64,000 bases of DNA from Pelagomonas calceolata (lineage: Eukaryota), in assembly GCA_918797485.1 (NCBI GenBank), contig CAKKNE010000003.1, forward strand, positions 3,782,001 through 3,846,000, written 5' to 3'. Made by a program: the position numbers and the translations under genes. Within the stretch, counting starts at the first letter, position 1; each line of letters starts with the position of its first letter. Under the pieces are notes generated by a model, which ran no database searches, had not been told where the DNA came from, and worked only from the letters and a program-made list of their open reading frames with translations. Of the stretch, positions 18,336-51,834 are shown in pieces.

Positions 18336-18788
18336 ATGAACCTCGGCGACGAGCACATGACCGACGAGACGCGCGAGGTGTACCGAGCCAAGGTCGCCGA
18401 GCGCCAGGCGAAGGAGGACGCGCTCGTCCAGAAAAGAATAGAGGAGGCGTCCGACTACGTCGGCACCCGTGTGGAAACCAACCGGTGAGTCGGGTTCACG
18501 AGGAACTGGCATCGCACGGAACGCGTCGCGAATGTCCACACGCAGGTCGGCACGTTCAGGGCGGAACGCGAGACGAAGCTGCGCGACGTGACCATGCCGA
18601 AGAACCGTGAAGGCGAGCACGCGTTCCTCGAGGCGCTCGAGACCGCCGCCGAGTCGGACGCGACATGGGCCCGCGTCCTCTCGCTCGTCGACACGGAGCC
18701 CGACGCCTGGGGCGGCGTGGACCTGGCGCGCCTCCGCGCCGTGCTCATCAAGAAGAAGGCCGAGGAGACGCAGGCGCTCGCCGCGTAG
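18336..18788 (+). CDS. Clathrin light chain-like protein; intron 18459-18545
   Basis: Spliced product has a charged central helix plus TWARVLSLVD....DLARLRAVLIKKK, matching the CLC C-terminal WERV..L.D / D.SRMR.VL pattern. Confidence 0.7.
18467..18545 (+). mobile_element. Introner element (diverged TIRs, perfect 8-bp TSD)
   Basis: gtcggcac TSD at 18459-18466 and 18546-18553; element starts ccgtgtggaaaccaaccggtgagtcgggt and ends cacacgcag. Confidence 0.8.
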
Positions 18789-31250: not shown

Positions 31251-33424
31251 TCACGCGCCGGGCAGGCGGACGCGCTTCATCGGCCCCCCGGGCACCGTGG
31301 GGTTCGGCGCGCACCACGCCCGCCGCAGCGCCGGGCACGCGTCGGCGACGGGCGGCCAGCTCCCACCGTTCTTAACCGATCGGACCTCCTCCACCGTCCG
31401 CGGACAGAGCGACAGGTTCTCGACGCCGTCGGCCCGAACTAAGACGTCGTCCTCGAGTCGCACGCCCCCAAAACCCCGGAACTCTCGCAGTCGGTCGGCG
31501 TTCAGGAACTTTGCGAGAGAAGGGTCCTTGAGCGCGTCGTCCAACAACCGGTCGATGAAGTAGCAGCCCGGCTCCACAGTGAGCATCATACCCTCCTCGA
31601 CGATCCGCGCCGTTCTCAATTTATTGAGGCCCGGTCTCTGCGGTCGGTCCGGGTTGCCGTCCAGGTAGCCGCCGACCTGCGCGGACGTCGAACTTCGGGC
31701 GCCCCGCGGCGTCGACGCGACGCCGTGACCGTACGAACCTAACTCACCGCGTGATTTCCACACCGGCACACACGTCGTGCGTGTCCAGCCCGATCAGGTG
31801 CCCGAGGCCGTGCGGCATGAAGGTCGAGCCCAGGTCGGCCGCCAGCATCTCCTCAATATCGCCCGCGAGGACGCCTCCCCTGGTTAAGTGTTCCAGGATC
31901 GTCCGCTCGGCGAGGCGGTGCATGTCCGGCCACGCGACCTGTGTGGAAATCAACCAGTGTGTTGCGTGCACTTCTCGGCGATGACGCGGCCGTGCTGGCT
32001 CCGTCGAGCGGTAAGGAACCGGCATCGCCACGCCATCGAGCAGGCGTCGCGTCGAGAACGCGCCGTAAAATTTTGATTTCCACACAGCACGCGACGCCCG
32101 GCTTCAAGGCACCAATGACCGCCACCTGCGCCGCCAGCACGGCCTCGTGGACCAAAATTTGATCCGACGTGAAGTCCGAGGAGATGGGGAAGCTGCACGT
32201 GATGTCGCTGGCATAACAATGGTACTCCGCGCCCATGTCCAATAGCGCCTGGTCGCCCTCTTTAAGTAACCGCGCGTTCGGCGCGCCTGCGTGGTCATCG
32301 ACTCTACGCGCCGTCGCGCGGACGGTTCCCACGCGGAGCCCGCGCCCGCGTGGCCGTAGTGCAGCACGGCCGGGTTCGGGCCACAAGCACAGATGCACGT
32401 GTACGCCATGTGGCGACACCCCCCGTGCGTGTACGTGTGGTGCATGAACAGCGACTCGAGCTGGTACTCCATCTGGCCCGGCCTCGCGTACCGCATCACC
32501 TCCGAGTGCGCCATGGAAGAGACCTGTGTGCTGGATCGTCGCGTCGACCTCCACGCCATCGACGCGACGCCTGCTCGATAGCGTGGCGGTGCCGGTTCCT
32601 CACTGCTCGACGGAGCCAGCGCAGCCGCGCCATCGCCGAGAAAATGAGCACCCGACGCACTGGTTGATTTCCACGCCGGACGACACCCAGTTGACGTACC
32701 GCATGACCTCGACCTCGGCCGCCGTTTTTCTGGTCCTCAAGTCGGCGATGGCGTCGAATAATGTGGTAAGGTCCCGTCGCTCGCGAAAAACGTCGTCGCC
32801 GTCGAAGGAAGCCGGCGCCGCGTAGTTGCCGCTGTCGCTGTTCCGCCCGTGCAACAAGTACACCTTAGCTGTGTCGTCCGTCGCGATCGCGTCCGCGAGC
32901 CAGTTCTGGAGGCTGCCCGTGAAGTAGCACGCATCGACCGCGTACTTTTCGACAAACGCTGCGCACGACGGCGCCCTACCACAAAAGACCTCGTAGGCCT
33001 CGCTGCGTAGATCGGGCACAAATAGAGTCGCGGAGCCGTCCTGCAAGTTTACTGCACCGTAGCAACCCGGCTCGGAGACCCCGAACAGCCACTGGAAGTA
33101 CGACTCCTGGCGGAAGACGGGTTCATGGTCCGTGTCGTACCTCAATTGCTGGTCGCCGCCCTGCACTAACACAACGCCTCGATGCGCCTTCATGCGGTCG
33201 CAGAGCCTCGCCCTATTCAGCGCATGCAGCGCCATCGGCACGCGGTAGGTATCTAACCCTTGGTCGTACTTCGCGCCGATCTGGCCCGTTTCGAGGCACG
33301 TGCGGCACTCGGCCTCGCTGATGGAGCGCCGGTCCGCGAGCGAGGGCATGCGACCCCTCGCCGCGAGGGCTTCCGTTTGCGCGTGCAGCAGGGCTAACAG
33401 GAGCCAGCTGCGGAGGCTTGGCAT
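31251..33424 (-). CDS. PEPD: Xaa-Pro dipeptidase (prolidase, M24B); exons 33424-32687, 32523-32346, 32286-32096, 31938-31774, 31676-31251
   Basis: [86 protein letters not shown]; the four predicted introns keep frame exactly. Confidence 0.95.
31677..31773 (-). mobile_element. Degenerate introner-derived intron (one TIR retained)
   Basis: Minus strand: THD|gtgtgtgc-cggtgtggaaatca...cgcag|VGG. Confidence 0.6.
31939..32087. mobile_element. Intact introner element, 149 bp, perfect TIRs and 8-bp TSD
   Basis: cacgcgac + ctgtgtggaaatcaa ... ttgatttccacacag + cacgcgac; intron on minus strand = 31939-32095. Confidence 0.92.
32524..32678. mobile_element. Introner element, same family, partly diverged
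   Basis: Minus strand starts cggcgtggaaatcaaccagtgcgtcgggtg and ends cacacag; TSD gtgtcgtc/gtctcttc (6/8); internal sequence aligns with 31939-32087 in the opposite orientation; intron 32524-32686. Confidence 0.85.
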
Positions 33425-33647
33425 GCTTGCTCTGTGCGCAGGTAGAAAGAAGACGAAGCGCTCGAGAAAACCAGGGTGAGTGAGTAGTGTGGTGTTTTGC
33501 GAGCACGTTATGTGCAGAATAGCTTGAATAGCTTCACCAGCGTGTGTTTTGCGTTTTGCTCTGCCGCTAGTAGGCCGCGCATGGTCAAACCAGCTCGCAG
33601 TTCGGTGCGACTTGCATCTCGACGCGCTGACGCAGCCAATCCCACCA

Positions 33648-34490: not shown

Positions 34491-34695
34491 GTAAGTACCA
34501 AGTCTAGGACGGTCGCGTCGTGAACTGCACGGCATGCCAGTAGCAAGGGTCCTTTAAATGGGCGCACGACCCTTCGTCGCCGCTGCGTCGCACAAAGCCG
34601 CGGCGCGGTGGTATTCGCGCGGTCACTGGCATAGCGACCAGCCCGCAGCGAAAGCGTCGACGCGGCGCCGCGCATGGCTAGGAAAACACCCACTC

Positions 34696-35694: not shown

Positions 35695-35962
35695 CAGTAG
35701 ACCACGAATGCGGACGGCTGCGGGCCTACGACGCCCGTGAGGCGCAAACGCGCACCGCCAAGGCTGCCCATCGTTCTACTGCTAGTGCCCCTACCGCTTA
35801 GCTCCCCGACACGAATAACGGCTCCCAGCCGTACCACCCACCGGTCCGTGGAGGCGCCCCCGCCCCAAGCGTCCCGAACCGCGCCGCGGCGCTCCTGTGC
35901 GCTCTGACGTCGCGCGTTGGTCCTTGGAATCAAGAGCTCGCAACCACGCGCCGCGCGACGCC

Positions 35963-36907: not shown

Positions 36908-36982
36908 CAACATGTTTTAACTATCTACATTGCGGACGCCCCGGGGTTCGCCGCGACGACAGCACGCCATCGCCGCGACACG

Positions 36983-38017
36983 TCACGCGATCTTCTCCTT
37001 CGCAGAGTCCTCGAAGTCCGCAAAGAACGCGACCCAAACAAGTAGAGGCACCAGGACAAAAACCACGACGAGCGACGTGTACAACACGTCCGTCGCGCCC
37101 TTCTCCGCCGCCTGGCACAACGCTTCATCAAAAAAGAAGGCGAGGACGAAGCGGTCGCCACTCGTCACGTCTTCGCCCCCGTGCTTCAGGCGCGCCCCGT
37201 GGACCACGGCGCCACCCATCTCCGGCGAGAAGACGACGTCCCTCAGTGACGAGAAGCGCGTGCCGCCGCCGTCAAAGTCGTAGGCGTCATTTTCACGTGT
37301 CGTCAACGTGGACGCGCAGACCCCACAATCACACTTCGTCCGTAGATGCGGCTCGACCTCGTCGCAGCTCTGGCCCAGACAACTCAAAGGGCAGAACTCG
37401 TCGTATGTTAACAGAGGATATTCTGGAGAGAAGTGTTCTCTTGAGAAGGTTCGCTCGGGAAACGCCGCGTTGCACGTCTCGTTCGCGAAGCCGCGCTTTC
37501 TCAGTTCACAAGTCTGCGGTTCTAAGGAAGCGTAGTCCGGCACGTTGACGCCGCTCAAACGCGGGCGACGCAGCGCGACCGTCGCCGAATACCTCCCGCC
37601 GTCGCCGTGCTGCTCGAGGCCGGCCTGTCTTGACGTGGAATATTTGATGACGAAGCCATCATGTAGAACTGGGTCGGTGGCGCCGCAGCGATGTATGAGG
37701 TCGTCGATGGTGGCGTTTCTGGCTTTGTGGACCGCTCTCTTCGCGGCCGCGGCCTGCGCACCGCCGTCGGCGTAGACTGTTGATACGGGAAGATCGACCG
37801 TCGCGTAGTACGTGTGGCGGCTCGACGTGTAGTTGCGTTTCGCTGCGGCGGCCTCGGTCGCCTCGATTATTGCTGCCGTTTCGGCCGCGGTCAAAATGGC
37901 TGGCAGCAGCCGCGGCAAACATAGCGCTCGCTCGTCGAACTGGTGGTGCGGGCAGCGGGAGTGCGCTTTCAGGGCGACGGTGATCAGTGACCACCAGTGC
38001 GTGAGCAGGGCGAGCAT
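36983..38017 (-). CDS. 2OG-Fe(II) oxygenase (prolyl/lysyl-hydroxylase-like) with Cys-rich insertion and C-terminal TM
   Basis: FVIKY....LEQHGD (HxD); FDGGGTRF; KHGG..VTSGDRFVL (distal His, Arg); signal-like N-terminus. Confidence 0.8.
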   Translation of the reverse strand: MLALLTHWWSLITVALKAHSRCPHHQFDERALCLPRLLPAILTAAETAAIIEATEAAAAKRNYTSSRHTYYATVDLPVSTVYADGGAQAAAAKRAVHKARNATIDDLIHRCGATDPVLHDGFVIKYSTSRQAGLEQHGDGGRYSATVALRRPRLSGVNVPDYASLEPQTCELRKRGFANETCNAAFPERTFSREHFSPEYPLLTYDEFCPLSCLGQSCDEVEPHLRTKCDCGVCASTLTTRENDAYDFDGGGTRFSSLRDVVFSPEMGGAVVHGARLKHGGEDVTSGDRFVLAFFFDEALCQAAEKGATDVLYTSLVVVFVLVPLLVWVAFFADFEDSAKEKIA

Positions 38018-38435
38018 GTTGCTGTACAGTGGCAAGGGCTGGTGGTTGCTTGCCTCAAAGCGGCGCGAGCGGTGCAATTTTCTGGCTTGTATGGCTTCGC
38101 CGAGCAGTTGTGTGGCTCTGGACGACGGCTTGTCTCAATGCGCCGCGCTGCGGCGGCGTTTCGAGCACAGATGCACAAATGCAGCCTGCGGAGCAGCGCC
38201 GCCTCCCAGGTCCTAGCTCGTCGTGCACGGCAGCACGAATGGCACGAATGCCTCCTTGAGCTCTTGTGGGCCTCTTGATCCTGCTGCAAGCGTGAAGCGA
38301 TCGGACGAGGCGCTGCGTGGCCGCACCGGCAAGGTGCCCTGTGAGCCAGCCTGCAGTGCTGCCTTGACGCCGTCGCGGCGGGCCCACCGGTGGTGCGAGC
38401 CACACTGCGTTGACGCCGTCGCTGCGGCGCACACT

Positions 38436-39527
38436 ATGACTCTCGGCGACGTATGGCTCGACTTCGACCCCGCGGCCCTCGTCGCAACGGGATTAGACGT
38501 CGACGACGATCTCGCATTCCTGGCGCTGCTGGCGCTGCAGCGCCGCGGCCGCCTGAACTTGATAGGAGTGTCGGTGACGGCGGGGAACGCCGCGCTGCGC
38601 GACACGTTGGCAAACGCGAAAAGTCTCCTGCGCCTCGCGGGTGTGAAGCTCGAGCCGGCGGCCGGCGCGTCCTATCGTGATATGCACGTACCCTGGCCGT
38701 GGGTCCGGCGCCTCCACAACGTGCGCGGCGACGTCGCGTCCTCGCCCGACGCCGTCGATGCGATCCGATCTGCGGTGCTGGCGCGGCCGCCGCACTCGCT
38801 GACGATCGTAGCCCTCGGGCCGCTGACGAACGTCGCGGCCGCGTTAATGGATTCAGACGTCGCGGGCCGCGTCGGCCGCGTCGTGTCCATGGGCGGCGCC
38901 CTCGACGGCAAGAGGCTCGACCTGAACTGGCTGTCGGACCGGGCCGCGGCGCGCGCCGTCGTCGCGTCTCGGGTGCCGCTGACGGTCGCGCCCGTGGAGC
39001 TCTGCGCGCAGGCCGCCGTGCAGCCAGAGGACGTCGACCGGCTCGTGGAGAGGTGCTGCCCGGGCGCTGCCGTTTGTTCATTGGCTCGGGCTATGCGGCG
39101 GCAGTGCGCGTTCTCGCGGCGCTTTGTTAATAAGGGGCTCGTGGCCCGCGTGTCAAATGCACACACTGCCCTAAAAAGCGACGCCTTCGTGCCGTGGGAC
39201 GTCGTGGCGGTCCTCGCGGTTGCAGAGCCGGAGCTGTTTGGGGAGTGGCGCGAATTCGACGTCGCCGTGCCGCCGTGTGTTTCGGGCGAGCCGTGCGACG
39301 GCACTGTCGTAGTCCGGAACGGGTCGGGGGTCCTGGCGCCGACGCGGCTCGCGCCCGGCGGCGTCGTCGACGCGCTGGTCGACCTGGTCTGTGACGTGCC
39401 GGCCGTCGGGCCGGCGCCGGGTATTGTTGGCGCGCCGGTGCTTTTCGGTTCAGTCGCTGTCGCGGTTTTGGTGCCCTTGTTGTTGTTGAGAGGAGTAGTG
39501 AGTAAGTTTAGATCAAAGACCAGCTAG
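38436..39527 (+). CDS. Inosine/uridine-preferring nucleoside hydrolase family protein, C-terminally anchored
   Basis: WLDFDP...DVDDDLA; VSVTAGN; ALGPLTNVA; MGG; LNWLSDRAAA; PWDVVAV; hydrophobic tail. Confidence 0.85.
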   Translation: MTLGDVWLDFDPAALVATGLDVDDDLAFLALLALQRRGRLNLIGVSVTAGNAALRDTLANAKSLLRLAGVKLEPAAGASYRDMHVPWPWVRRLHNVRGDVASSPDAVDAIRSAVLARPPHSLTIVALGPLTNVAAALMDSDVAGRVGRVVSMGGALDGKRLDLNWLSDRAAARAVVASRVPLTVAPVELCAQAAVQPEDVDRLVERCCPGAAVCSLARAMRRQCAFSRRFVNKGLVARVSNAHTALKSDAFVPWDVVAVLAVAEPELFGEWREFDVAVPPCVSGEPCDGTVVVRNGSGVLAPTRLAPGGVVDALVDLVCDVPAVGPAPGIVGAPVLFGSVAVAVLVPLLLLRGVVSKFRSKTS

Positions 39528-39661
39528 CGGCATGTAACACACTAGCACCATCACATTTTTCTAGACGCCGCTGCGCCGCCTATAAGCCAAAGGCTGCCCA
39601 AAAATAATGCCATGACCCCTTCGCATCGCTAACTTAGTCCAACGCGGCCGAATTCGCATCG

Positions 39662-41341
39662 ATGAGTGCGGCAAAACGCCTGCCCGCCTGGGCAGCAGCC
39701 TGCCTCCTCGTGGCCGCCGCGACCGATGAATGTCATGCGCCGGTCGCGAACACCTACACCATGGACCCGCCGGCGGCCACCTACCCGGCGCGACCGCTGC
39801 GCGAACTCACGACGCCGCTGACAACTGTAATTCGCTGGCTCGGTAACGACGAGGCCCAACTCGCGGCCTCCCTCGGCACGCTGCGCGCGACGCTGCCGCG
39901 GGCGCGCATCACCATTGCTGCGCGCGATATGGAGCGAGCGCGCCGCGTCGGCGCGCGCTTCGAGGTCGAGCGCGTCGTCGGCGTCGATGCCGTTCCGACG
40001 CTCACTACCGGACAGGTTGTCGTGGCCGACGCGTCGGTCGTATTCCAGCCCGACGCGACGCGGACTCGACTCGTCGCCATGAAGGGCTGCGCGGCGGCGG
40101 GCCGTCGCTTCGCAGTCGGTGATGCACAGAGCGTCGCGGGGTGGCTCCGCGGCGGCGACTGCTCGGAATCGACCACCGGTCTTATTCTAGCAAATGGCTG
40201 CGCGCATTCAAACGCCTTCGGCGAGGTCGTCTCAGAGAATGAGCTCCCCTACTTCGCTCTGTTACATCCGAGCGCGGACTGCCCCTGGCGCTCCACATTA
40301 ACGGCGCGTTTACAAACCTTCTCCGCCGTCTGCGCCAAGCCGCCCTGCGCCGTGCCGCTGTCGCGCGTCAAGAACCGGAAGCGGACGCAGCAGCTACTTG
40401 ACACGCACGGGCTGAATGATAAGACCGGCGCCGACGCGGCTTTATTATTGCGAAAGCGGCGGCCGCTCTTCGCTGAACCATATCATAATGAAACGCCGAC
40501 GACGGACTGCCTCTTGATGGGCGCCGGCGACTACAAGGATCCCCAGGTTTATGCGACGTTCCTGCGGAGCCTCCGCGAGGCCGGGTCGGCCTGCGACGTG
40601 ACGCTCTTCACGAACGACGCCGCCTCTCCAGATATTCAATCTATTTTCAACAAATTCAACGCGAGGTGGCACCGCTTTCTACCGGTAGTGGACGGGCTCT
40701 CGAGCGACGACGTCGCGAGACAAGCCTTCCAGACCGCACCCGGATTGGGTAGGTTAGCGTCGACTTTACGGTTCCGCATCTTCCGCAGCTATTTAATGGG
40801 AGAATCGCGCCATACGTATGTGGGCTGGGCCGACGTCCGCGACGTCTTTTTCCAGAGCTGTCCGTTTTCTCGCCTCAGAAGTGGCGCCTTGCACGTCTTC
40901 TCGGAGACGGCTCTGCTCACCCTAGCGCATAAACGGCGCGTCTACCTCGAGTGGTCGCGGCGGGCGTGGGGTTTTGACTGCTCTGATGAGTACGAAACGT
41001 ATCACGACGCGCCGCCGGTCAATCTAGGCGTCGTGCTCGGTGCCCGATCCTCAGTGTTGCAGGCGTTGGATACTTTAATATGTCAATTGGAGAGGTGCGG
41101 CGGCTGGGACCAGTTTTTGTGGAGCAAGTTGGTTTACGAGAGGACGATCGGAGCGACGGCTCATATTGGAGACGACGACGCGGCCGTCGCGAACCTGTGC
41201 GCGAATCTTGACGTGGAGGTCGGCGACGCGTCGCGCGTCGTGTCGAGTCGAGGTGAGCCTTATTCGATCGTGCACCAATATGATCGGTACGACGGCGTGG
41301 TGCGCGCGGTGGCTTCGAGGTGGCCGTTTGCGGCTGCTTGA
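39662..41341 (+). CDS. Secreted/Golgi glycosyltransferase-like hypothetical protein
   Basis: Signal peptide; ATFLRSLR..G..CDV; RF..F..YL; ADVRDVFFQ..PF (DxRD); DQ; IVHQYDR. Confidence 0.6.
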   Translation: MSAAKRLPAWAAACLLVAAATDECHAPVANTYTMDPPAATYPARPLRELTTPLTTVIRWLGNDEAQLAASLGTLRATLPRARITIAARDMERARRVGARFEVERVVGVDAVPTLTTGQVVVADASVVFQPDATRTRLVAMKGCAAAGRRFAVGDAQSVAGWLRGGDCSESTTGLILANGCAHSNAFGEVVSENELPYFALLHPSADCPWRSTLTARLQTFSAVCAKPPCAVPLSRVKNRKRTQQLLDTHGLNDKTGADAALLLRKRRPLFAEPYHNETPTTDCLLMGAGDYKDPQVYATFLRSLREAGSACDVTLFTNDAASPDIQSIFNKFNARWHRFLPVVDGLSSDDVARQAFQTAPGLGRLASTLRFRIFRSYLMGESRHTYVGWADVRDVFFQSCPFSRLRSGALHVFSETALLTLAHKRRVYLEWSRRAWGFDCSDEYETYHDAPPVNLGVVLGARSSVLQALDTLICQLERCGGWDQFLWSKLVYERTIGATAHIGDDDAAVANLCANLDVEVGDASRVVSSRGEPYSIVHQYDRYDGVVRAVASRWPFAAA

Positions 41342-41527
41342 GGCGTCGGCGTAGGTGTGTTCTTGTTACTATAGCCTTGTTTTGGGAGTCGTCCGCCTCG
41401 CCGCGCGGACGTGCGTGCGGGTGACCCTGAAGGGGAGAGATGTCGTCTCCCGTCGTTTGGTCGCGGTTTGTACACGCTATAGTTGTCCGCGCGCCGCGCA
41501 GCCGCTGTCATCGCACTCCATAGATCA

Positions 41528-43210
41528 ATGGAGCAGCAGCCCGAGGACGAGCGCCGCGGCCGGCGCGCCGGCCGGCCCCCCATCCGCTTGCCTCTCCACA
41601 GAAACAGCTTCAGGCGCAGCCGGAGCCTCTCGCCGTTCTGGCACGACGACGACGCCAACATGTATGCTCTGAGCAGACCCGCCGGTGAAGCGGGTGATTC
41701 TGGAGACGAGCCATTGCTGGTCCGCGAGACGGCGCCGACGACGCGCGCAGAAGAACCGATGGCATTGTCGCGGCCCCAATGGAACGCAGCTCCGATGGAA
41801 CGCGGCCTCGATGGAATGCCCCGCGCGTCGTTTGATCCCAACAGCGACAACCTGCCGTTCACGGGAGGCCGGGACCACTTCGATGTTGGACTTGAGCTTC
41901 AGAAGCTGCGCGGTATGAACGGGCCGGAGATGGAGAGATACATTAATGACGAGATGGATAGAGCCGATCTTGCAACCATGTTAGTTGAAACTAGGATGTG
42001 GATTCACTGGGGATTTGATGGGGCTCGCCGCGCCATGGAAGAAGGCAGGCCCGGCCTTTTCAATTTCCCCGACGAGCCACGGGGGCACACGAGCCGTATT
42101 CCAGACCAGTCGTCGCAGGGCTCCGCGCCCGGCGGCGTTCCCCAGAAATCCGCGCCGGCCCGGCCCGCGGCCTCCGACCGGCGCCAGAAGCAGACGGACG
42201 CCCAGTCGAAGGCCTGCGACGCTAGATTTGCGATGGGCCGCACTTCCTCGCCCGCGGACGCCGACGCGGACTCCTACCCGCCGGACCAGGAGGACTCGCC
42301 GCCGCTGCGGGTCTCGCGACTCTCGCCGCCGCCGCGGCGCGTCGTCGACCGCCCGCTGCAGCGGGATGGGGATCATTACCGCCCGTCGCCGCCGCGAGAT
42401 GATGTTCTCGATGATATTGGGCCCGCCCTCGCCTACGCCGACTCCATGCGGGTTCACTTTAGAGGCCTCGCTTCCAGAGAGGCACTTAATAGCACGGGCC
42501 TCACGGCTCGAACTGGGGCCGCCCAGGCTTGGATGCACGCACATCTTGCTATCCAGAGACAGCAGGCCCAGGAGATGGTCAATGGCTTCTCGGAGTCGTC
42601 GCCGCCCCCGGCCAATCCGGGCAATGCTCCTCCTCCTCCTCAAGGTCCTACTCCTGCTGTTTCCGACAATAGCCCCTTACCCTTCAACCAGAGTGATTGT
42701 GATTTTGGAGCTGTCATGCAGAAACTCCGAGGCATGGATTGGCCAGAGGCGGCGGCTTGGGCCAAAGCCGAAACGGATAGGGCTGGGCTTGCTAAGGCGT
42801 TGATTATGAATAGGATGTATTGCTATGCCCATCAAGAGTCTGAACGGCGAATTATCAATAATATGACCTCCGGCGGAGATACGAGGGGCCCGGTGTTCCA
42901 CGCTACCGACGATACTCTACCGCTTTGGGATAGCTGTGAGCGGCCAGGACCACATTTGAACCACCCGCGTCAGGACCACGGCGCCGCCTGCCAGGATCCA
43001 GGCATCTCGCCGGCACTGGCGTTGGGGCCGACGCCGGACCAAGTGGAGCTCGCCAAGTGCCGACGGGCGCTCGCCGCGGCCAAGCGAGCTCTAGAAGACA
43101 ACGCGCCCCTGGAACCCTCGAGTCCAGAATACTTCTGGGCGAGCGCGCGCGCCAGGGCCGCGTCGGCCCTCGCCGAGATCTCCAAGGTACTAGAGGGGGA
43201 AGAACTCTAG
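41528..43210 (+). CDS. Hypothetical protein with an internally duplicated ~55-aa domain
   Basis: Long ORF; SDN.LPF....D.G...QKLRGM...E......E.DRA.LA..L...RM occurs twice (~41843 and ~42662). Confidence 0.55.
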   Translation: MEQQPEDERRGRRAGRPPIRLPLHRNSFRRSRSLSPFWHDDDANMYALSRPAGEAGDSGDEPLLVRETAPTTRAEEPMALSRPQWNAAPMERGLDGMPRASFDPNSDNLPFTGGRDHFDVGLELQKLRGMNGPEMERYINDEMDRADLATMLVETRMWIHWGFDGARRAMEEGRPGLFNFPDEPRGHTSRIPDQSSQGSAPGGVPQKSAPARPAASDRRQKQTDAQSKACDARFAMGRTSSPADADADSYPPDQEDSPPLRVSRLSPPPRRVVDRPLQRDGDHYRPSPPRDDVLDDIGPALAYADSMRVHFRGLASREALNSTGLTARTGAAQAWMHAHLAIQRQQAQEMVNGFSESSPPPANPGNAPPPPQGPTPAVSDNSPLPFNQSDCDFGAVMQKLRGMDWPEAAAWAKAETDRAGLAKALIMNRMYCYAHQESERRIINNMTSGGDTRGPVFHATDDTLPLWDSCERPGPHLNHPRQDHGAACQDPGISPALALGPTPDQVELAKCRRALAAAKRALEDNAPLEPSSPEYFWASARARAASALAEISKVLEGEEL

Positions 43211-43492
43211 GGACCCTGTAAAACAAGAAGAATCGTATATCACGTTTCTGCCTAAGGATCGCTACACAGCGATCGCAAAACCCGTTTTGCAATTAGATCA
43301 TTTTGCGGGGGAGACACACACACTTGCACAGGACGCAAAAAGCGTAACAGAGGGCCGCAGCGCTCCTCAAACGACGCGCACGTTGGCGTTTCGAACCGCT
43401 GCGTCGCCCGTCTGCCATAACATTGATCGCTAAGCAAGGCAACCAACCGGGGCTGCTGAAGCAGCACTGACTGCAACGCAGCATCGCAATAA

Positions 43493-44449
43493 ATGCGCCG
43501 CTGCGCAGCCGTGCTGGCAATGCTGCGGGCCGCGGCGATCGTGCCGCGCACCCGCTGGCAGCCGCAAGCCGAGCGCCACCTCGCGAGGGTCACGAAGCTG
43601 CTCGGCGCTGCACCGGACGTCGCCGCGGCGCGGTCGCGCGACGACCCGTTGCTGAATTTCGTATTTACGTATTACGGTAGCGACTTGGGCGCAGCCGCGA
43701 ATCTCGGGCGATGGTGCCCGCCGGTAGGTGTGGCCATCGAAGCATCACAGGACGACCGCGAACGGCTCTGGCGCGGCATCGAGAGCAGCGGCTCGTACGA
43801 TCCGCGAAAGCTCCCCAAGAAGCGCCTCGCGGCCTTGGAGCGCGGCCGCGCCGCTCTCGCCGCGACGCGCAAACGGCCGCCGATCTGGCACTGCTACGGG
43901 CTCCACGAGTGGGCGATGCTCTACCGGCCCGACGGTGCCCCGCAACCGCACAAGCACCAGTCGCTACCGCTCCGCGTCGACCAGGCGACGATTAATCGCG
44001 TCGTCGAGGCGGACGAGATCAAGTGCACGCACTTTGACGCCTTTCGCTTCTTCGCGCCCGAAGCCACGGACAAGAACCGCCACGCGCTGACGCGGCAGAC
44101 GCAGCTCGACCACGAGCAGCCGGCCTGCGTCCACGCGAACATGGATTTACTACGGTACGCGCTGCGGCTGGCGCCCTTCGTCGACGCTAGTCTCATCGGC
44201 GACGCGCTGGACGTCGCGTTGCAGGCGCGGGACTTGGACATTCGCGCGTCGCCCTATTTGCTCGCCGGCGCCGTGCCGGTGGAAGTCGAGACCACGGCCG
44301 GGCGAAAGGAGTACGTCCGACGCCAAGCCGCGGTCCACGACGCCGCCGCACCCGTCAGAGACCGCCTGCTTGCGGCCTACGACGACTTCTTCCTCGCACA
44401 CGCGCTCGTGCCGGACGCTCGCGCGGAGGAGGCTAAACTTGTTGTATAG
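43493..44449 (+). CDS. Homolog of an actinobacterial-type conserved protein commonly auto-annotated '3-methyladenine DNA glycosylase'
   Basis: FVFTYY; CYGLHEWAMLY; PLR; CTHFDAFRFF; EQPACVHANMDL; LDIRASPY; ET..GRKEY, all recalled family motifs. Confidence 0.7.
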   Translation: MRRCAAVLAMLRAAAIVPRTRWQPQAERHLARVTKLLGAAPDVAAARSRDDPLLNFVFTYYGSDLGAAANLGRWCPPVGVAIEASQDDRERLWRGIESSGSYDPRKLPKKRLAALERGRAALAATRKRPPIWHCYGLHEWAMLYRPDGAPQPHKHQSLPLRVDQATINRVVEADEIKCTHFDAFRFFAPEATDKNRHALTRQTQLDHEQPACVHANMDLLRYALRLAPFVDASLIGDALDVALQARDLDIRASPYLLAGAVPVEVETTAGRKEYVRRQAAVHDAAAPVRDRLLAAYDDFFLAHALVPDARAEEAKLVV

Positions 44450-44566
44450 ACTATTTTCAACTTTGTGGTATTTTTTTTAGCGGAACAGGCGGGGGATTTT
44501 GATTTTGAGGAGTACACACAGGGTCTTGGGCGTGATTTTGAGGACCGATTTTCAGAGAAAGATCGT

Positions 44567-45500
44567 TCAGAGAAAGATCGGTTGCCTGTGTGGGAACGAC
44601 ACAGTCACGAAACGACCGCGGCTCTCTCACGAGGCATGTAGACTCTCATGCGGCCGCATCGACGGCGTCGAGGCGGTGCGGCACCGCGTCGACGCCATCG
44701 CCGCGACCACGTCATGTTGAAGCTCATTTTATGCTCTGAGTCAGCACCATCCGGGCGGCTTGTGCTTGCAGGCCTTGGAGTGTGCGACCTGTGTAGAAAT
44801 GAAGTCTCGCGCTGAATCATATGGCTTGATTTCCACACAGGCGCCAGACGGCGGCGGGTGCGTGCCCGAAGACTCGGCCACACTTGTGCGCGCAGGGATA
44901 GTTCCCATCAGCGTCTTGGGGAGGCTTCGACATCGCCTGGTGGTTGCGTCGGAAGCGCGAGGGGGCGAACGGCCGCGGGGCCGACGACGCCTTGGGCGCG
45001 CGTCGGGGCGGGGCCGGTGCTTGCGGTAAGGCCTTGCGCGGCGGCTTGAGGGATAAAAGGAGCCAGGCGGCGCGGTTGGGGTTCTCGTCGAGAATGCGCA
45101 CGGCATCTAATTGGGAGGGCTTGACGGGCTCGTAGAGGAGCTCGGGCGTCCGGTAGACGGCTCCCGGCGAAGCCACGGCCGCGAGGAGCTCGCGCTTCTC
45201 GACGCCGGGCGTCGGCGGGAGCCGCGCCGCGGAGGCGGCGCGCGGGGAAGCTTCATCGTCCGAGGAGCTCACCTTCGGTACCGGCGCTTCGACAGTGACG
45301 CGGACGCCCGGCGGCCACGCGGGGAGCGCGGCGTCCGGGCGGCGGCCCGAGGGGCTGCGTTGCTCCGGCGGCGTCACCGTTCCCGCTCGTACGAGAGCCG
45401 ACGGCACGACGACGCTCATCTTGGCGGCGGGGGGTGCCTTGGCGAGGGCCGGGGCGGCCGACGCGATCTTCGTGGTGCTTGCGGTGGGCGCGGGTGTCAT
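44567..45500 (-). CDS. Low-complexity protein with C-terminal C2HC-type zinc finger; introns 44789-44849 and probably 44586-44747
   Basis: Splicing restores CAHKCGRVFGHAPAA|VAHSKAC; the second intron gives a KPPGWQPIFL* end (KPPGWC* if unspliced). Confidence 0.6.
44789..44840. mobile_element. Minimal 52-bp introner element
   Basis: ctgtgtagaaatga ... tgatttccacacag TIRs; TSD degenerate; intron 44789-44849 on minus strand. Confidence 0.75.
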
Positions 45501-46128
45501 GGTGAATAGTAGTCGCCTCTTGAATTAAAACGACTTTTGAGGTCCTGGCAGCACCGCGCGGCGGCCCGGTGGCAGCTAGGATGGTATGGAAGGCGCACAC
45601 CGCCTTTGGCGTGCGTACGATGCGAATTGCGGCGGTGCGCAGCTGCCTCAAATGGGGAGAGTGCCTCGCTTGACCTGGCATCGATTTACTTTAGTTAGGC
45701 TAGCCGCCCCCGCACGTCATTCACTCAGAATTTTGAAATAGTCCATTCGACGAGACTCCGGTCGGCCTGGGGGAGGCGCCCGGCCACTACCTGGTCACTG
45801 CCCAGTCATCGAAGGTACGAGGAAGGGGCTGCCCCATCGCACCGTAAAAAAACGGGGGCTCTTCCGCCGTTCTTACGCTCCCGACCCGTCCTCGGCAGCC
45901 CTGGTACTCCGCTTCGAGGCCTCGCGCGGGCGGCGGGGGACCGAAAAACAGGTTGGGCAGCCAGCCAGGCGAACGCTAAAAAACCGCGTCCAGCGCGCCC
46001 GCCGCCGCGAGTGTTGACGAGTCAGCCCAGTCACCAGTCACCCGTCACCCGTCCACAGCGAGTCGCGCTGCTTACAAGGCGCACCGCCGCGCAGCAGGCG
46101 AGCTCGAGACCAGGGCTGCTGCAGCGCC

Positions 46129-47211
46129 ATGGCGCCGACGCACAAGGGCTCGATCCCCTCGCCCGCAAGGGTCCACGGCGCGTTAGGACTCTGCCAGGTC
46201 TTGTTTGGCGCCGGCGCCGTCGTCGGCGCGCTGGGGCTCCCTGCATTCAATCCATTAGTTTTCGCTTTACTGAGGGAAGCGCTAGCCGCACCTCTATTAG
46301 CAACAGCAGCCTACCTGACAACAAGAACGACATTCACCGACGTCGCGCCCTATAGCCGATTGTTCGGCGAGTGCGGCACTCTTATTTTTGGAAATCAAGT
46401 GCTGTTCGTCGTCGGCCTCAAGCTCTCGAATCCGGTAGCAGGAGCCATCTGGCAGCCTTCGCAGCCCATCTTCACGGCGGCTTTGGCCTCGTTCATCGGC
46501 GCGGAGACGCCGTCTCCTCTACGCTTTGCTGGCGTGGCATTGGCGTTCCTAGGTTGCGCGACGATGGTCTCGTTTCGCGCCCACGAGACGCACACGAGCG
46601 GCGGGAACCTCACGAGGGAGCTCTGCGGCCACGTGTGTTTCTTCGGCAACTGCCTCTGCACGTCCGGATATGTGTTGCGGTCGAAGCAGTTGCTTCGAAG
46701 GTTCCCGGCGCTCTGCGTGACCGCTGGAAGCTATGTGGTGGCCGCTCTGTGCATGCTGGTGACCTGCGTGTTGCTCAACTCGAACGCGTATATCGTGGAG
46801 TTCTTGTGTCCCGATTGTACGAGTGCCTGGGCGGTACCTAGAGGCGCATGGCTACCTTTGCTGTATTGGGTCCTGTGCCAGTCGTGCGCCGCCTACGCGT
46901 TGATGACCTGGGCGAACCGGGTGGCGTCCGCGTCATTGGTGTCAGGCTACTCCGCGCTGCAACCGGTGACCGCGGCCGTGCTCGCGGCGGTCGCCGTCGC
47001 GCTGGAGTGGGCGCCGGCCTGCACGCCTCTGAGTAGAGGTGGGTCCTGTTTGGCCTATCCTGGTGTGGGTGATCTCGGTGCGGTGGGCGTGTTCGCGGGA
47101 CTTTATCTGGTCGTCGCGTCGGAGCCGGCGGCGACGTCGTCGCGGGATCCCGTCGACCCGGCGCCCCTACTATCGGCGGAGAAGAGTTCCTCCGAGGCGT
47201 TGGGGCCCTGA
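46129..47211 (+). CDS. EamA/DMT-superfamily transporter (WAT1-related)
   Basis: ~10 TM helices in two EamA repeats; FALLRE..A; QPIFTAALA; YSALQPV. Confidence 0.85.
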   Translation: MAPTHKGSIPSPARVHGALGLCQVLFGAGAVVGALGLPAFNPLVFALLREALAAPLLATAAYLTTRTTFTDVAPYSRLFGECGTLIFGNQVLFVVGLKLSNPVAGAIWQPSQPIFTAALASFIGAETPSPLRFAGVALAFLGCATMVSFRAHETHTSGGNLTRELCGHVCFFGNCLCTSGYVLRSKQLLRRFPALCVTAGSYVVAALCMLVTCVLLNSNAYIVEFLCPDCTSAWAVPRGAWLPLLYWVLCQSCAAYALMTWANRVASASLVSGYSALQPVTAAVLAAVAVALEWAPACTPLSRGGSCLAYPGVGDLGAVGVFAGLYLVVASEPAATSSRDPVDPAPLLSAEKSSSEALGP

Positions 47212-47261
47212 GTGTCCTTTGGTTTTGATTTTTGTGTGAACTAAATTTCCAAGCTTATAGA

Positions 47262-48092
47262 TTACGACTCCGTCGCCAGCGCGAGGACCTCCTGCGCCGA
47301 GTGCCCCAATAACAAATCGACGGCGGCCGCTTCATCATTGTTCGAAATAGACAACGCGGCCTCGCAGACCTGCTGCGACCAGCCCATCGCGACGAGCCGC
47401 GCGACCGCACCGTCAGCCGAAGACGGCGGCGGCGGCGGCTTCAGCGCGTCAACAGGAACCTCGTCAAGAACGCCCCGCAGGTCCACGGCCAGCGCGAGTG
47501 ATTGGGGCGACCAGTCCCCCTCAACAGACCAGACCCGGTCCTGGGTAGGGTCCTCGAACTTCCTCTGAAAGTCGTCGACGACGGCCTTGGAAGCAGGGAC
47601 CGGAGGTAAGGTTTTGTGGTTCTTCCTCTGTAGAACTCTTTGTTTGCACGTCTCCACATCTTCATCCAAGTGGAGTACTAATGCCACGGCGTTCTTGTCC
47701 TTTGGGGCGTGTTTTTTCATGAGCTCGACCCAGAGGTCCCTTTGTTGGTTCGTGTGGTTGCATCGATCCACCACACACCGTCTTCCTCTCTTCATCAGGT
47801 CCGTCACGGCGTCCTCGCACGCTTGTCTTGATCCTAGTGAATCTTGGCACACGAGCGAGAATCCTCTAGCTCGCAACTGGGCGGCTAGGAGTGATTTACC
47901 ACTGCCAGGCAGGCCCGTCAGTACGACCAGTAATAAGTAAGGCGGCGGGTCCTCCTTTTCCGCCAATTGCTGCATCATGAACCGCGCGCCGGACCGCTCC
48001 CACGCGTGGTCCGCGGCCACACGCCAGGCCGGCTTTTTATTGGCCTGGCGCTCCTTGCGCGCCTGGGCGGGCTGGACCTGCCACTCGCTCAT
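47262..48092 (-). CDS. P-loop kinase (AAA_33-like) with C-terminal UBA domain
   Basis: LTGLPGSGKS; VCQD; VVDRCNH; CKQRVLQR; LVAMGW....AL..SNND..AAVDLLL. Confidence 0.85.
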   Translation of the reverse strand: MSEWQVQPAQARKERQANKKPAWRVAADHAWERSGARFMMQQLAEKEDPPPYLLLVVLTGLPGSGKSLLAAQLRARGFSLVCQDSLGSRQACEDAVTDLMKRGRRCVVDRCNHTNQQRDLWVELMKKHAPKDKNAVALVLHLDEDVETCKQRVLQRKNHKTLPPVPASKAVVDDFQRKFEDPTQDRVWSVEGDWSPQSLALAVDLRGVLDEVPVDALKPPPPPSSADGAVARLVAMGWSQQVCEAALSISNNDEAAAVDLLLGHSAQEVLALATES

Positions 48093-48454
48093 GGCTGCGT
48101 GCGCTCGCGGCGGCTGGCGTCCAGGTGTCCTATGCGCGCGGCGCGGTGCGTCGGCGGCGTCCCAAGTGTCCTGTGCGCGTGCGCGGCGCGTCGGCGGCGG
48201 GGGCTTCCAAGAGGTCCAAGAGGGCAGGGCTCCTATATGACTGCGCGGCAGAAGCTGCGCTGCAGGGCTGGGCGGAGAGGTCCCGCAGGCCTTGTTATTC
48301 TTGCAAAATGGCTACGGCAGCGTCCAAGCGGCGGCGTCTGGCTCGAGCCGGCGGCTTGCTAGTGTCTTACAGCGCTAGTTAAAGTGCCTTAACGAAGATG
48401 GCGACGGCGTAATATAATAAGCGACGCCGTTCGAGGGTAGCGACGGCGTCCCGC

Positions 48455-48847
48455 TCAGCGGCGCTTCTTCTCCGGCGCCTCCTGGACGGCGACGGCCCCG
48501 GCGAGCGAGAGCGCGAGCATGAGGCCCTCCGGGACGTAGTGCATCGGGTACTTGAGCGGGAGATTCGGCGTGAGGTAGCCGAATCTCGCGTTCCAGGGGT
48601 AGAGGATGCCGATACCGACGGACGCCGCCAGCGCGGCCTTGGCCGCGACGGCCGTCTCAACGTTCATCATCAGGAAGACCTCGCAGAAGATGGTCACGGC
48701 GTGGCCGCGGATCCAGAACTCCATCTCCGGCGTCGACGCGATGTCCCAGTGGTCCGTGACCATGCCGCCGGGATTGAGGAGCATCATGACCCCATAGACA
48801 CCGAAGATGGCGCACGACGCCTTGACGTAGGTCGCCGCGAAGCCCAT
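48455..48847 (-). CDS. Small hypothetical membrane protein
   Basis: ~130 aa from MGFAATYVK with four hydrophobic segments and strong GC3 bias. Confidence 0.7.
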   Translation of the reverse strand: MGFAATYVKASCAIFGVYGVMMLLNPGGMVTDHWDIASTPEMEFWIRGHAVTIFCEVFLMMNVETAVAAKAALAASVGIGILYPWNARFGYLTPNLPLKYPMHYVPEGLMLALSLAGAVAVQEAPEKKRR

Positions 48848-49157
48848 AGTTGCGTCCGGGTGCGGCTTGCGTGCAAAGGCAGCGATTGATGCGCGGCACC
48901 GATCTGTTCTCTCGTTCCTCAAGGGGGGCTAAGTTTGCCCCCCATGCGTTCCTGTCGCGTGCAGCTAGCTGCTGTAAAGACACTAGCAAGGCCAGACACT
49001 GTCATGCCCGCCGTTACTTGTGTCGGTCGCCCCTGGGAGCGCTCTTGATTAGTATTAGCCTAGTATACCCATCAGAAAGCCGCCGGCCTGGTTGTCCTTG
49101 CCCGTCTTGCCATGTGCCGCCGTCGACCGATTGCCAAATATAGTACAACACTCATAC

Positions 49158-51320
49158 TTAACGCGAGTCACTACGACGCCGGCGCCCGCGGTCGCGCGAG
49201 CGCGAACGGTCTCGACGCCGCCGCCCTCGCGACCGCGACCGCGAGCGATCCGCATACGCCCCGGGCGGCGGCGGGCCGGACGGCATCTGCGGCGGCGCGA
49301 CGCCTTGCGTCTCGGACATCCAGGCCGGCCGGTTGTCGACGCCGCGGCCGCGCCCGCCACCGCCGCCGCCGCCGTAGTGCCCGTTGCCGCCGCTATCGCC
49401 GTAGTGCCCATTACTGCCGCCGCCATCCCCATAATGCCCGTTGCCGCCGCCGCCCTGGCCGCGGCGGCCGCCGCCAGACGAGAACTGCATCGACGAGCCC
49501 ATGTGCCCACCGCCGCGAACCATGGCCCTTAATTCATCAGGAACTTGTTGACCGGCGTCCTCCATCAGCTTAACTAACGGACCGGCCTTCCGGTCGTCCC
49601 GTTGCGTGAAGAAGGTGTAGGCGTTGCCCGTGGCGCCCGCTCTCCCAGTACGACCAATTCGATGCACGTAGTCCTCCACGTTGCCCGGAAAGTCGTAATT
49701 TATGACAGCGCGCACATCTTTAATATCCAAGCCCCGCGCCGCGACGTCCGTCGCGATGAGCACGGGACAGATGCCCACTTTAAAGGCCTCGATCGTTTGT
49801 GTTCTCTGATACTGGTCCTTGTCGCCGTGCATCGCTGAGCAGCGCAACTGCAGCAGGCGCGGCATGGACCGCTCGAGCTGGTCACATAAGCGCTTCGAAT
49901 TCGCAAAAACAATAATCCGACACGTTTGACCTTGAGCGGCCTCTACTTCTTTCCGCACGCACTCCGCGAGTAGTCTATCTTTATCCTGCGGTGATCTCGT
50001 CACGAAGACGTGCTGCGTCACGTCACTATTAGCTTTCAGCGAGCCCGACGTATCTCCGACATATATCACAACCTGTGTGAAAATCAAAATTTTACGGCAC
50101 GCCATCGACGCGACGCCTGCTCGATGGCACCCGACGCACTGGTTGATTTCCACACAGATCACCACGGGCTCACTCAAAAACTCCGACGCCAGCGACCGCA
50201 CCTCGCGCGGCCACGTCGCCGTGAAGAATAACGTCTGCCGCCGGTCGGGGCAGCGTTGTACGATGCGCCGAATTTGGGGCTCGAAGCCCATGTCGAGCAT
50301 CCTATCGGCCTCGTCAAAGACCAGGTAGCGACACGCGTACAGGTCGACCATCCCGGCCTCGAGGAAGTCGTTCAGGCGCCCGGGCGTGGCGATGCACACG
50401 TGCGCGCCTTGTCGTAAAGCAGCCATCTGCGGGCCTTTTGGGGCGCCCCCGTAGCAGCAGACGCTTTTCACGCCGAGCGGGCCGCCAAATTTCCGCGCCT
50501 CGTCCTCGATCTGCGTCGCGAGCTCGCGCGTCGGGGCCAAGACCAAGACCTTCGGCGCGCAGGCCTGGCACGGCCGCGGGTAGCCCTCGCCGCAAAGTAA
50601 TTTGAACGCCGGCACGAGGAAGCCTAACGTTTTGCCGCTGCCCGTTTTTGCGACGCCAATAACGTCTCTCCCTTGAAGGGCCGGAGGCCAGGCCTGGCCC
50701 TGGATGGGCGACGGCGTGGCGAAGCCGGCGGCTTTCAGCGAGGTATACAAGGCGGGCAGCAACGGCGCGTCCTCGAAGCGAGGAAAACAAGAATCGCAGC
50801 CGCCCGCGACCGTGATGTCCCGCTCGCGTCGCCACCGGAGCACGTCGGGCGGGCTCTCCAAATCTTTTTTTAACGAAGAGAGGTCCCCGCCGCGCTTCTT
50901 CGGTTGTGTAGAAGGCACGGAAAACTGCGGCGGCGGCCTTCCCATGCGCGACGCCGCGATGTGCGCCTGCACGGCGTCCCACGCGTCCTGGGCCTCCTCG
51001 GGCAAGGTCTGGGCCGAGGCGCCCTCGTAGTTCTGCGGTACCTGGGTTGAGGGCGGCAAGGGTTGTGCCGAGGCCGCTACGACGGGTTCCGGTGCTTTCG
51101 GCGGCGTCCACGAGACCTTGCCCGTGCTATGTTCGTAGAAGTAGGTGTTGCCCGTCGTCGGGCAGCGGGCCGGCGACCAGCCTGCCGGGAGGCCGGGCAT
51201 CGCTGGTGGCGGCGGTGGCTGCGCGGCCTGCTGCGGCTGCGCGTAGCTCTGCGGCGCTTGCCCGGCGTAGGCGGCCTGCTGTTGACCATAACTGGCGCCG
51301 TTGGCGTAGCCGCCGTACAT
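49158..51320 (-). CDS. DEAD-box RNA helicase, DBP2/DDX5-like with N-terminal WW domain (plant RH14-like); intron 50073-50165
   Basis: LPAGW......YFY....VSW (WW); PSPIQ; AKTGSGKT; PTRELA; DEAD; TAT; ARGLD; HRIGRTGR; Gly-rich and RS tail. Confidence 0.93.
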   Translation of the reverse strand: MYGGYANGASYGQQQAAYAGQAPQSYAQPQQAAQPPPPPAMPGLPAGWSPARCPTTGNTYFYEHSTGKVSWTPPKAPEPVVAASAQPLPPSTQVPQNYEGASAQTLPEEAQDAWDAVQAHIAASRMGRPPPQFSVPSTQPKKRGGDLSSLKKDLESPPDVLRWRRERDITVAGGCDSCFPRFEDAPLLPALYTSLKAAGFATPSPIQGQAWPPALQGRDVIGVAKTGSGKTLGFLVPAFKLLCGEGYPRPCQACAPKVLVLAPTRELATQIEDEARKFGGPLGVKSVCCYGGAPKGPQMAALRQGAHVCIATPGRLNDFLEAGMVDLYACRYLVFDEADRMLDMGFEPQIRRIVQRCPDRRQTLFFTATWPREVRSLASEFLSEPVVICVEINQCVGCHRAGVASMACRKILIFTQVVIYVGDTSGSLKANSDVTQHVFVTRSPQDKDRLLAECVRKEVEAAQGQTCRIIVFANSKRLCDQLERSMPRLLQLRCSAMHGDKDQYQRTQTIEAFKVGICPVLIATDVAARGLDIKDVRAVINYDFPGNVEDYVHRIGRTGRAGATGNAYTFFTQRDDRKAGPLVKLMEDAGQQVPDELRAMVRGGGHMGSSMQFSSGGGRRGQGGGGNGHYGDGGGSNGHYGDSGGNGHYGGGGGGGRGRGVDNRPAWMSETQGVAPPQMPSGPPPPGAYADRSRSRSRGRRRRDRSRSRDRGRRRRSDSR
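50073..50157. mobile_element. Introner element, 85 bp
   Basis: atcacaac + ctgtgtgaaaatcaa ... ttgatttccacacag + atcaccac (TSD 7/8); appears in the ORF track as a VVI...VVI duplication. Confidence 0.9.
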
Positions 51321-51834
51321 TGTTATTGGAGCTGTTATGCGTGCCGCGCTGGCGGCGTCTGAGCAGTTCTTTGAGCAATGCGCGCTGGCGTCGCGTCGGC
51401 GTCGCGTGTGTGCTGCTCGTTCAGCGGTCTGGATAATGTAATATATTGCGACAGCGCTCGAGAAATGCAAGAGCTACTGCGGTATTGAATGAATTCGATA
51501 GTTTCTCAGTTTTGAGGACGTGTGCGCGTGATGCGCGGCCGTCGTCGACGATGCCAAGGCAAAGCTAGTATCGATACTACGCTAGCAAAATCGCGCGAAG
51601 CCGACGCTTCGAGCAGGCGATGGACTCCTCCAGATTCGACTGACTCCTCCTCGGCTGGCTTGCTGCTCCTTTGGTAAAGGTCTCACATCTCGCCAACGAG
51701 GATAAAAAACGAGCTGTCCTACACCCTCGCGGCCGCATAGCTGGATTCAAGGGTCGGCAGTGATCATAGACTTGCCAAAGTTCGCCGCGGGCAAACAACC
51801 ACTGCAAAAAACGCATCGATAAGCGACTCCAGCC

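What the first reader, a model, noticed from the sequence alone, without database searches (positions are those of the whole stretch)
50065..50165. Same introner family works in both orientations; this copy is an in-frame, stop-free intron
Seen: relative to the host transcript, this copy and those at 32524 and 18467 begin with the ...aaatcaaccagtgcg-type end. The 31939 copy begins with the ...aaatcaaaattttacggc end. Both TIR ends read ...CACACAG, so either orientation supplies an acceptor. The 93-nt intron has no stop and would insert 31 aa between the two RecA domains if retained, so gene predictors can miss it.
Basis: seen in the sequence. Interest (0 to 1): 0.7.

Follow-up and report, generated by a model that had tools for sequence, protein, structure and literature searches.

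The report
Two-way transposon intron in algal helicase
A shrunken copy of a small jumping DNA element sits in an RNA-helicase gene of a marine alga and is likely spliced out as an ordinary intron; its family makes introns facing either way, which is already known for such elements, and this copy's unbroken reading frame is likely chance.

Summary
Window 50073-50157 is an 85-bp element with 15-bp terminal inverted repeats and an 8-bp target duplication, in a minus-strand DBP2/DDX5-like helicase gene. The upstream duplication supplies GT and the element's end supplies CAG: a 93-nt, in-frame, stop-free intron. 119 of 120 homologues lack the 31 residues. It is a deletion derivative of a 203-bp element (211-nt intron), matching the ~210-bp introner peak published for Pelagomonas calceolata, the likely host. 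Both orientations are real: RNA reads splice out copies of each kind in one prolidase gene, and 52 unambiguous metagenome copies split 34:18. Two-way intron creation with 8-nt duplications is already reported for Aureococcus (seen second-hand). The open frame looks incidental: of 13 wild-relative protein clusters carrying this same insertion with other deletions, only 3 read through, against about 20% expected from random deletion.

The parts
50073..50157 (-). 85-bp introner (MITE-like) element, A end first relative to the host; a 203-bp element that lost 87 bp and 31 bp internally
   Evidence: alignment to 203-bp copies
50073..50087 (.). B-side terminal inverted repeat; supplies the acceptor CAG (50075-50073 on minus); one change from the family end (A at 50080)
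50143..50157 (.). A-side terminal inverted repeat, on the donor side; its AG faces the other strand
   Evidence: the two ends pair in the fold, z -4.4
50158..50165 (-). Upstream copy of the 8-bp target duplication (GTGGTGAT on minus); its GT is the likely donor
   Evidence: homologues read EP-VVIYVGD
50065..50072 (-). Downstream copy of the target duplication (GTTGTGAT on minus); exonic, restores the coding sequence
50073..50165 (-). 93-nt phase-0 GT-AG intron, 3n and stop-free (31 aa if retained)
   Evidence: absence from homologues; junction reads not displayed
50166..51320 (-). Exon 1 of a DBP2/DDX5-like DEAD-box helicase (WW domain 44-74, DEAD domain 204-375)
   Evidence: best PDB hit yeast Dbp2 8ark, E 3e-104
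49158..50072 (-). Exon 2: linker, Helicase_C domain, Gly-rich and RS-rich tail; the spliced protein would be 689 aa
31939..32087 (-). 149-bp copy, B end first, perfect duplication GTCGCGTG; 157-nt intron 31939-32095 in the prolidase gene, spliced
   Evidence: (joint 31930->32088)
32524..32678 (-). 155-bp copy, A end first; 163-nt intron 32524-32686 in the prolidase gene, spliced
   Evidence: (joint 32521->32685)
31677..31765 (-).
   Evidence: (joint 31674->31772)
18467..18545 (+). 79-bp copy, A end first, perfect duplication GTCGGCAC; likely 87-nt intron 18459-18545 in a clathrin light chain gene
   Evidence: outside the stretch on which reads were laid
44789..44840 (-). 52-bp copy, little more than the two ends; 61-nt intron 44789-44849, spliced; orientation tentatively A-first, judged by eye from the interior
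   Evidence: (joint 44785->44847)

Best explanation
This is a shortened copy of a 203-bp non-autonomous DNA transposon (an introner) that sits in a DBP2-like helicase gene and is likely removed by the spliceosome as an ordinary 93-nt GT-AG intron. Shown: the 8-bp target duplication, the inverted ends, splicing of sister copies in both orientations, and absence of the 31 aa from homologues. Inferred: a transposase acting in trans made an 8-bp staggered cut at a site starting GT. The upstream duplication became the donor, whichever inverted end lay downstream gave the AG, and the downstream duplication restored the coding sequence, so the protein was unchanged. Because both ends finish in CAG, either orientation works; selection keeps only insertions whose duplication starts GT or GC on the sense strand. 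The insertion is likely old and shared by several related lineages, which have since lost different parts of the interior. This lineage lost 118 bp and ended up 3n and stop-free, probably by chance.
For: Anatomy. Family: 120 metagenome loci, 80 with both ends found, 78 unique; 19 of 78 are exactly 203 bp; the duplication is perfect in 44 of 78 and has one mismatch in 24; donors are GT 63 and GC 14 of 77 called. Orientation: 34 A-first and 18 B-first among 52 unambiguous copies (p 0.036 against 1:1); an independent codon score agrees in 48 of 52. RNA joints for 4 of the 5 copies in 31400-51399, covering both orientations. 119 of 120 homologues have no insert, including the closest sister cluster P0002 and Aureococcus P0131. 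Same-site alleles: among 120 short homologues, 12 show the A end right after EFL[SA]EPVVI. Two read through (99 and 162 nt), 8 end inside the element (mostly where full-length copies have stops), 1 runs out of frame into exon 2 and 1 is ambiguous. With P0003 (156 nt) that is 3 of 13 reading through, against 19-20% simulated (p 0.73). Alleles that would truncate the helicase between its domains must be spliced, which argues that this one is too.
Against: The joint for this intron was not among the 15 of 132 joints that displayed, so its splicing was not seen directly. At 50088, inside the intron, 24 of 43 sense-strand reads over four runs carry this copy's letter, against a summed mean depth of about 150 in the neighbouring exon bin; these may be paralogue reads or real retention. 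The spliced 689-aa protein did not appear among the hits. The same-site alleles are predicted proteins from short metagenome contigs whose DNA I could not fetch; some may be chimeric or cut at a contig end. No transposase was looked for (no whole genome is held). The four RNA runs are one sample.
Confidence: 0.92

Rival explanations
1. The intron is spliced but also retained in a regulated share of transcripts, giving a helicase with a 31-aa longer linker; the open frame is kept by selection.
For: 3n and stop-free. Three other allele clusters at this site also read through. The acceptor AG lies inside a predicted stem formed by the two ends. 24 own-letter sense reads inside the intron. Yeast DBP2 and human DDX5 are regulated through their introns (recalled, no call).
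Against: 10 of 13 allele clusters do not read through. The read-through rate matches chance. The read-through alleles differ in length (33, 52, 54 aa) and sequence, and were the only ones a full-length protein search could find. Across the family only 2 of 78 copies are 3n and stop-free. Introners are reported as generally better spliced than other introns (PMC9860276, passages).
Confidence: 0.05
2. The element has been exonised: it is not spliced, and the 31 aa are a permanent insertion between the two RecA domains.
For: One unbroken 720-aa ORF; the junction was not displayed; the site lies between the DEAD and Helicase_C domains.
Against: Intact GT and CAG ends; sister copies are spliced; most same-site alleles would truncate the protein; depth at 50088 is well below the neighbouring exon bin; the read-through protein is not in the collection while 7 of 8 neighbouring ORFs are.
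Confidence: 0.02
3. The donor is the second GT of the duplication (GTG|GTGAT), giving a 90-nt intron and one extra valine.
For: A second GT lies 3 nt downstream and keeps the frame (sequence).
Against: Close homologues read EP-VVIYVGD with no extra residue; in the sister copies the RNA joints match intron length = element + 8.
Confidence: 0.03

Closest known systems
Pelagomonas calceolata introner elements (Guerin et al. 2022, PMC9481584 and its preprint 10.1101/2021.10.25.465678; passages of main text and supplement file 2 read)
   Same: Intron length peak near 210 bp (full length here 203 + 8 = 211 nt); GT and GC donors, AG acceptor, conserved TIRs; genome 63% GC (window about 56-71% per 2 kb). 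956 putative elements are reported.
   Different: The passages seen do not mention target duplications, orientation or internal deletion series. The sequence logo (Figure S3) could not be seen, so identity of sequence was not checked. The window's species is inferred, not shown.
Aureococcus anophagefferens introners (Huff, Zilberman and Roy 2016; not held; seen only as described in 10.1101/2020.10.14.339549 and PMC10228655, passages)
   Same: One splice site carried in the element and the other recruited from the duplication; introns created in either orientation; about 210 bp.
   Different: Different species. The Aureococcus orthologue of this helicase (P0131) has no insert here. Sequence homology between the two families was not tested.
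Polarella glacialis ILE classes 6, 8, 10 (10.1101/2020.10.14.339549, passages)
   Same: 8-nt duplication starting GH gives the 5' splice site, the element end gives the 3' site, either orientation works, with a bias to one orientation (34:18 here).
   Different: Dinoflagellate; GA donors are also used there; no sequence relationship tested.
Micromonas pusilla IE1 introners (PMC11282704, passages)
   Same: MITE-like elements with TIRs and target duplication that are spliced out cleanly.
   Different: 3-nt duplication; the element carries the donor and co-opts the acceptor, the reverse of this family.

Membership tests
TIR/TSD introners (Aureococcus type) | Many near-identical copies at unrelated sites, with similarity ending at the intron boundaries | tested here: met
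   6 copies in the window; 78 unique copies in metagenome loci, 203-bp copies with median 92% pairwise identity
TIR/TSD introners (Aureococcus type) | Terminal inverted repeats | tested here: met
   15-bp repeat, 14 of 15 matching in this copy
TIR/TSD introners (Aureococcus type) | 8-bp target-site duplication of variable sequence | tested here: met
   7 of 8 here; 0-1 mismatch in 68 of 78 loci (the search assumed 8 bp and allowed up to 3 mismatches); positions 3-8 vary freely
TIR/TSD introners (Aureococcus type) | 5' splice site co-opted from the duplication, 3' splice site carried by the element | tested here: met
   GT/GC start in 77 of 78; RNA joints skip element + 8 nt for 31677, 31939 and 32524
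TIR/TSD introners (Aureococcus type) | Introns formed in either orientation | tested here: met
   RNA joints for both orientations in one gene; 34:18
TIR/TSD introners (Aureococcus type) | This copy is spliced out, leaving the protein unchanged | tested here: inconclusive
   Strong indirect support; its junction was not among the 15 of 132 joints displayed
TIR/TSD introners (Aureococcus type) | Empty orthologous site in a relative | tested here: met
   Six members of the P0002 cluster, on contigs up to 29 kb, and Aureococcus P0131 lack the insert; seen at protein level only
TIR/TSD introners (Aureococcus type) | Autonomous transposase with matching ends; insertion in nucleosome linkers | not testable with these tools
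   No whole genome held; no nucleosome data
Pelagomonas calceolata IEs of Guerin et al. 2022 | About 210-bp repeat-derived introns, GT/GC-AG, with TIRs | tested here: met
   211 nt is the commonest length, 19 of 78,
Pelagomonas calceolata IEs of Guerin et al. 2022 | Same species and same repeat sequence as in their list | tested here: inconclusive
   Source names are withheld for the window's proteins; the logo figure is not readable; the species is inferred from GC, intron length and the Aureococcus orthologue (68% identity)
DBP2/DDX5-DDX17 DEAD-box helicases (host gene) | DEAD and Helicase_C domains with best match to Dbp2/DDX17 | tested here: met
   The closest named relatives are WW-domain plant RH14-type proteins, so 'DBP2-like' is safer than strict orthology; no tree was built

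The most novel reading that the evidence does not exclude
A transposon-born intron in a DBP2-like RNA helicase has been co-opted as a regulated retention switch: several lineages independently trimmed the same insertion to an open frame, so that retention yields a helicase with a longer inter-domain linker rather than a decay target.
Probability: 0.05. Interest if true: 0.55.

Novelty: already known. Interest (0 to 1): 0.13.

Why it matters
As a mechanism it adds little: two-way, duplication-donor introners are published for a related alga and the family appears to be described for the likely host. Two modest points are useful. First, read-through copies put false 26-54-residue-scale inserts into public metagenome protein sets (four examples at this site, 33-54 aa), and the translated ends (CVEINQC... 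KILI[SF]TQ) make a simple filter for them. Second, this one site survives in wild relatives as at least a dozen differently deleted versions, so it is a ready example of how an introner decays into an ordinary short intron while keeping its ends. If regulated retention were real, it would be a rare case of a young transposon intron gaining a function in an RNA-processing gene.

Tried and rejected
No whole genome was held, so no genome-wide count or transposase search was done. A narrow read-lay on this intron was not obtained, so junction reads and retention for this copy stay open. The shares of words (0.51-0.93 for 14 contig runs of the organism; 0.26-0.30 for 6 metatranscriptomes) were not used as evidence. 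The viral-contig scan gave 1 hit (L121) with only the A-end motif and no partner end or duplication seen by eye in the 501 bases read: rejected as chance or cellular DNA. None of the 121 loci is this helicase site; L070 hits exon 1 of the helicase elsewhere. 40 of 120 metagenome loci were dropped (38 no partner end found, 2 no flank), plus 2 duplicates. Because the pattern needed an intact 23-nt B end, the sample leans to young copies. Faster decay of the donor-side end was checked: terminal AG intact in 77 of 77 acceptor-side and 73 of 77 donor-side ends, too few for a claim. 13 of 78 introns are 3n (13 of 59 without the 203-bp copies), 2 of them stop-free; no claim of depletion is made. Huff et al. 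2016 is not held. PMC12130899 passages, PMC9860276 frame terms and the search on in-frame retention (listing only) gave nothing on this point. Earlier findings of this scan: none. Structure prediction was not run, as it could not decide splicing.

Full report
What is there. The flagged 101 bp are an 8-bp target duplication, an 85-bp element (50073-50157) and the second duplication copy, with one mismatch. The element has 15-bp inverted ends, so each strand ends in CACACAG. The host gene is on the minus strand, 51320->49158: WW domain, DEAD domain (204-375), Helicase_C (456-562), best solved relative yeast Dbp2. Read on that strand, the upstream duplication starts with GT and the element ends with CAG, which defines a 93-nt phase-0 intron. 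It has no stop in the host frame and would add 31 aa at residues 386-416 of a 720-aa read-through.

Other copies in the window. A scan for GY-starting duplications with family ends returned 6 candidates: 5 family copies (18467, 31677, 31939, 32524, 50073) and one weak match at 14990 that I did not pursue. The end motif found a sixth copy at 44789. Relative to the host strand, 18467, 31677, 32524 and 50073 begin with the A end and 31939 with the B end; 44789 looks A-first from its interior. Three copies, of both orientations, lie in one prolidase gene. Stranded polyA reads from four runs of one sample, laid on 31400-51399, show joints that skip 97, 157, 163 and 61 nt, matching 31677, 31939, 32524 and 44789. 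Both orientations are therefore spliced in vivo. Only 15 of 132 joints were displayed and the one for 50073 was not among them; 18467 lay outside the stretch.

The family. Both ends were found in 80, of which 78 are unique. The commonest length is 203 bp (19 of 78), that is a 211-nt intron; the rest range from 67 to 239 bp, mostly shorter. The duplication is perfect in 44 and one letter off in 24. It starts GT or GC on a usable strand in 77 of 78. In the 52 cases where only one strand qualifies, 34 are A-first and 18 B-first, and a codon-usage score trained on the window agrees in 48. The focal copy is a full-length element that lost 87 bp and 31 bp inside.

Are the 31 aa real protein? Of the 120 best full-length homologues, 119 have no insert at this point. 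The exception, P0003 (with its cluster mate P0127), is nearly identical to the window's protein and carries 52 aa translated from a longer copy at the same site. A search for shorter relatives (257 hits, 120 listed) showed why that exception should not be over-read. Twelve fragments carry the A end at this site: 2 read through (33 and 54 aa), 8 end inside the element, 1 leaves it out of frame and 1 is ambiguous. Most of the 8 end where full-length copies have stop codons. Two more begin inside the element, and one near-identical fragment (P0130) has no insert, being either a transcript or an empty allele. So one old insertion survives in many differently deleted forms, and 3 of 13 clusters read through (4 of 14 with the window). 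Random deletions of full-length copies at this site give a 3n, stop-free intron 19-20% of the time; the observed rate does not differ (p 0.73 and 0.50). Most alleles would cut the helicase in half if kept, so the segment must be spliced in those lineages. The caveat is that these are predicted proteins from short contigs whose DNA I could not fetch.

Retention. One search gives only a hint. At 50088, 43 sense-strand reads were laid over four runs; 19 carry a paralogue's letter and 24 this copy's, against a summed mean depth of about 150 in the exon bin 49409-50075. Paralogue reads clearly land here, and local depth may be below the bin mean, so this is neither a measure nor a tight ceiling. 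The two ends are predicted to pair and hide the acceptor (z -4.4), but sister copies with such ends are spliced.

Gene prediction. The window's own 720-aa read-through is not in the collection, while 7 of 8 neighbouring ORFs tested are, 6 of them with NCBI and UniRef records on a 5.39-Mb contig. This suggests that the reference annotation did not read through. The spliced protein itself did not appear in my searches.

What is known. Guerin et al. 2022 report for Pelagomonas calceolata an intron peak near 210 bp and 956 putative introners with GT/GC donors, AG acceptors and conserved TIRs (PMC9481584 main-text and supplement passages; preprint passages; supplement file 5 and the figures could not be read). 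The window is likely this species or a close relative; that is inferred from GC content, the 211-nt length and a 68% identical Aureococcus orthologue. [quoted passage not shown] The review PMC10228655 says Huff et al. 2016 reported co-opted splice sites and insertion in both orientations (passages). Huff et al. itself was not held. PMC9860276 lists the 'carries 3' site, recruits 5' site from the TSD' type and finds introners generally better spliced than other introns (passages). In five literature searches I saw no statement on orientation or frame for Pelagomonas copies, but the mechanism is the published one.

Verdict. The feature is real and was read correctly from sequence. It belongs to a known kind, and very probably to a family already reported in this organism. 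The in-frame, stop-free state is best explained as a chance outcome of internal deletion. Splicing of this one copy is inferred with high confidence; regulated retention remains a small possibility. Interest 0.13.

Noticed in passing
window 50157 and 32087 (loose ends): PolyA reads hold many unspliced family ends from other loci: 1261-1563 reads per run run on past the A end, largely into one flank (agreement 0.72-0.80), and 462-820 past the B end into mixed flanks starting GTC. Some copies elsewhere appear heavily retained or lie in UTRs of highly expressed genes.
   Followed up: no
window 17792-17858 (+) and 44586-44747 (-): Two introns both start GTGCTGACTC and end CACACAG; possibly a second family that carries its own donor, or old copies. 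The second is spliced (364/177/178/63 reads); the first is inferred from sequence.
   Followed up: partly
window 32287-32345 (-): 59-nt intron in the prolidase gene (joint 32281->32341), most simply read as GC-AG, with a decayed TIR-like start. The gene has at least four introns, three of them clear family copies.
   Followed up: partly
window 18985-31143 (+): 4052-aa ORF built from 25-aa (75-nt) repeats and larger 570-1160-nt repeat blocks; looks like a repeat-rich surface protein.
   Followed up: no
window 18473-18500 and 31740-31750: The 18467 and 31677 copies each contain a strong donor-like GGTGAGT inside the A end, which could act as an alternative 5' splice site.
   Followed up: no
L070:256-528: A metagenome locus holds exon 1 of the same helicase (89% identity) with what appears to be a family copy at a different site, upstream of the one studied here.
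   Followed up: no
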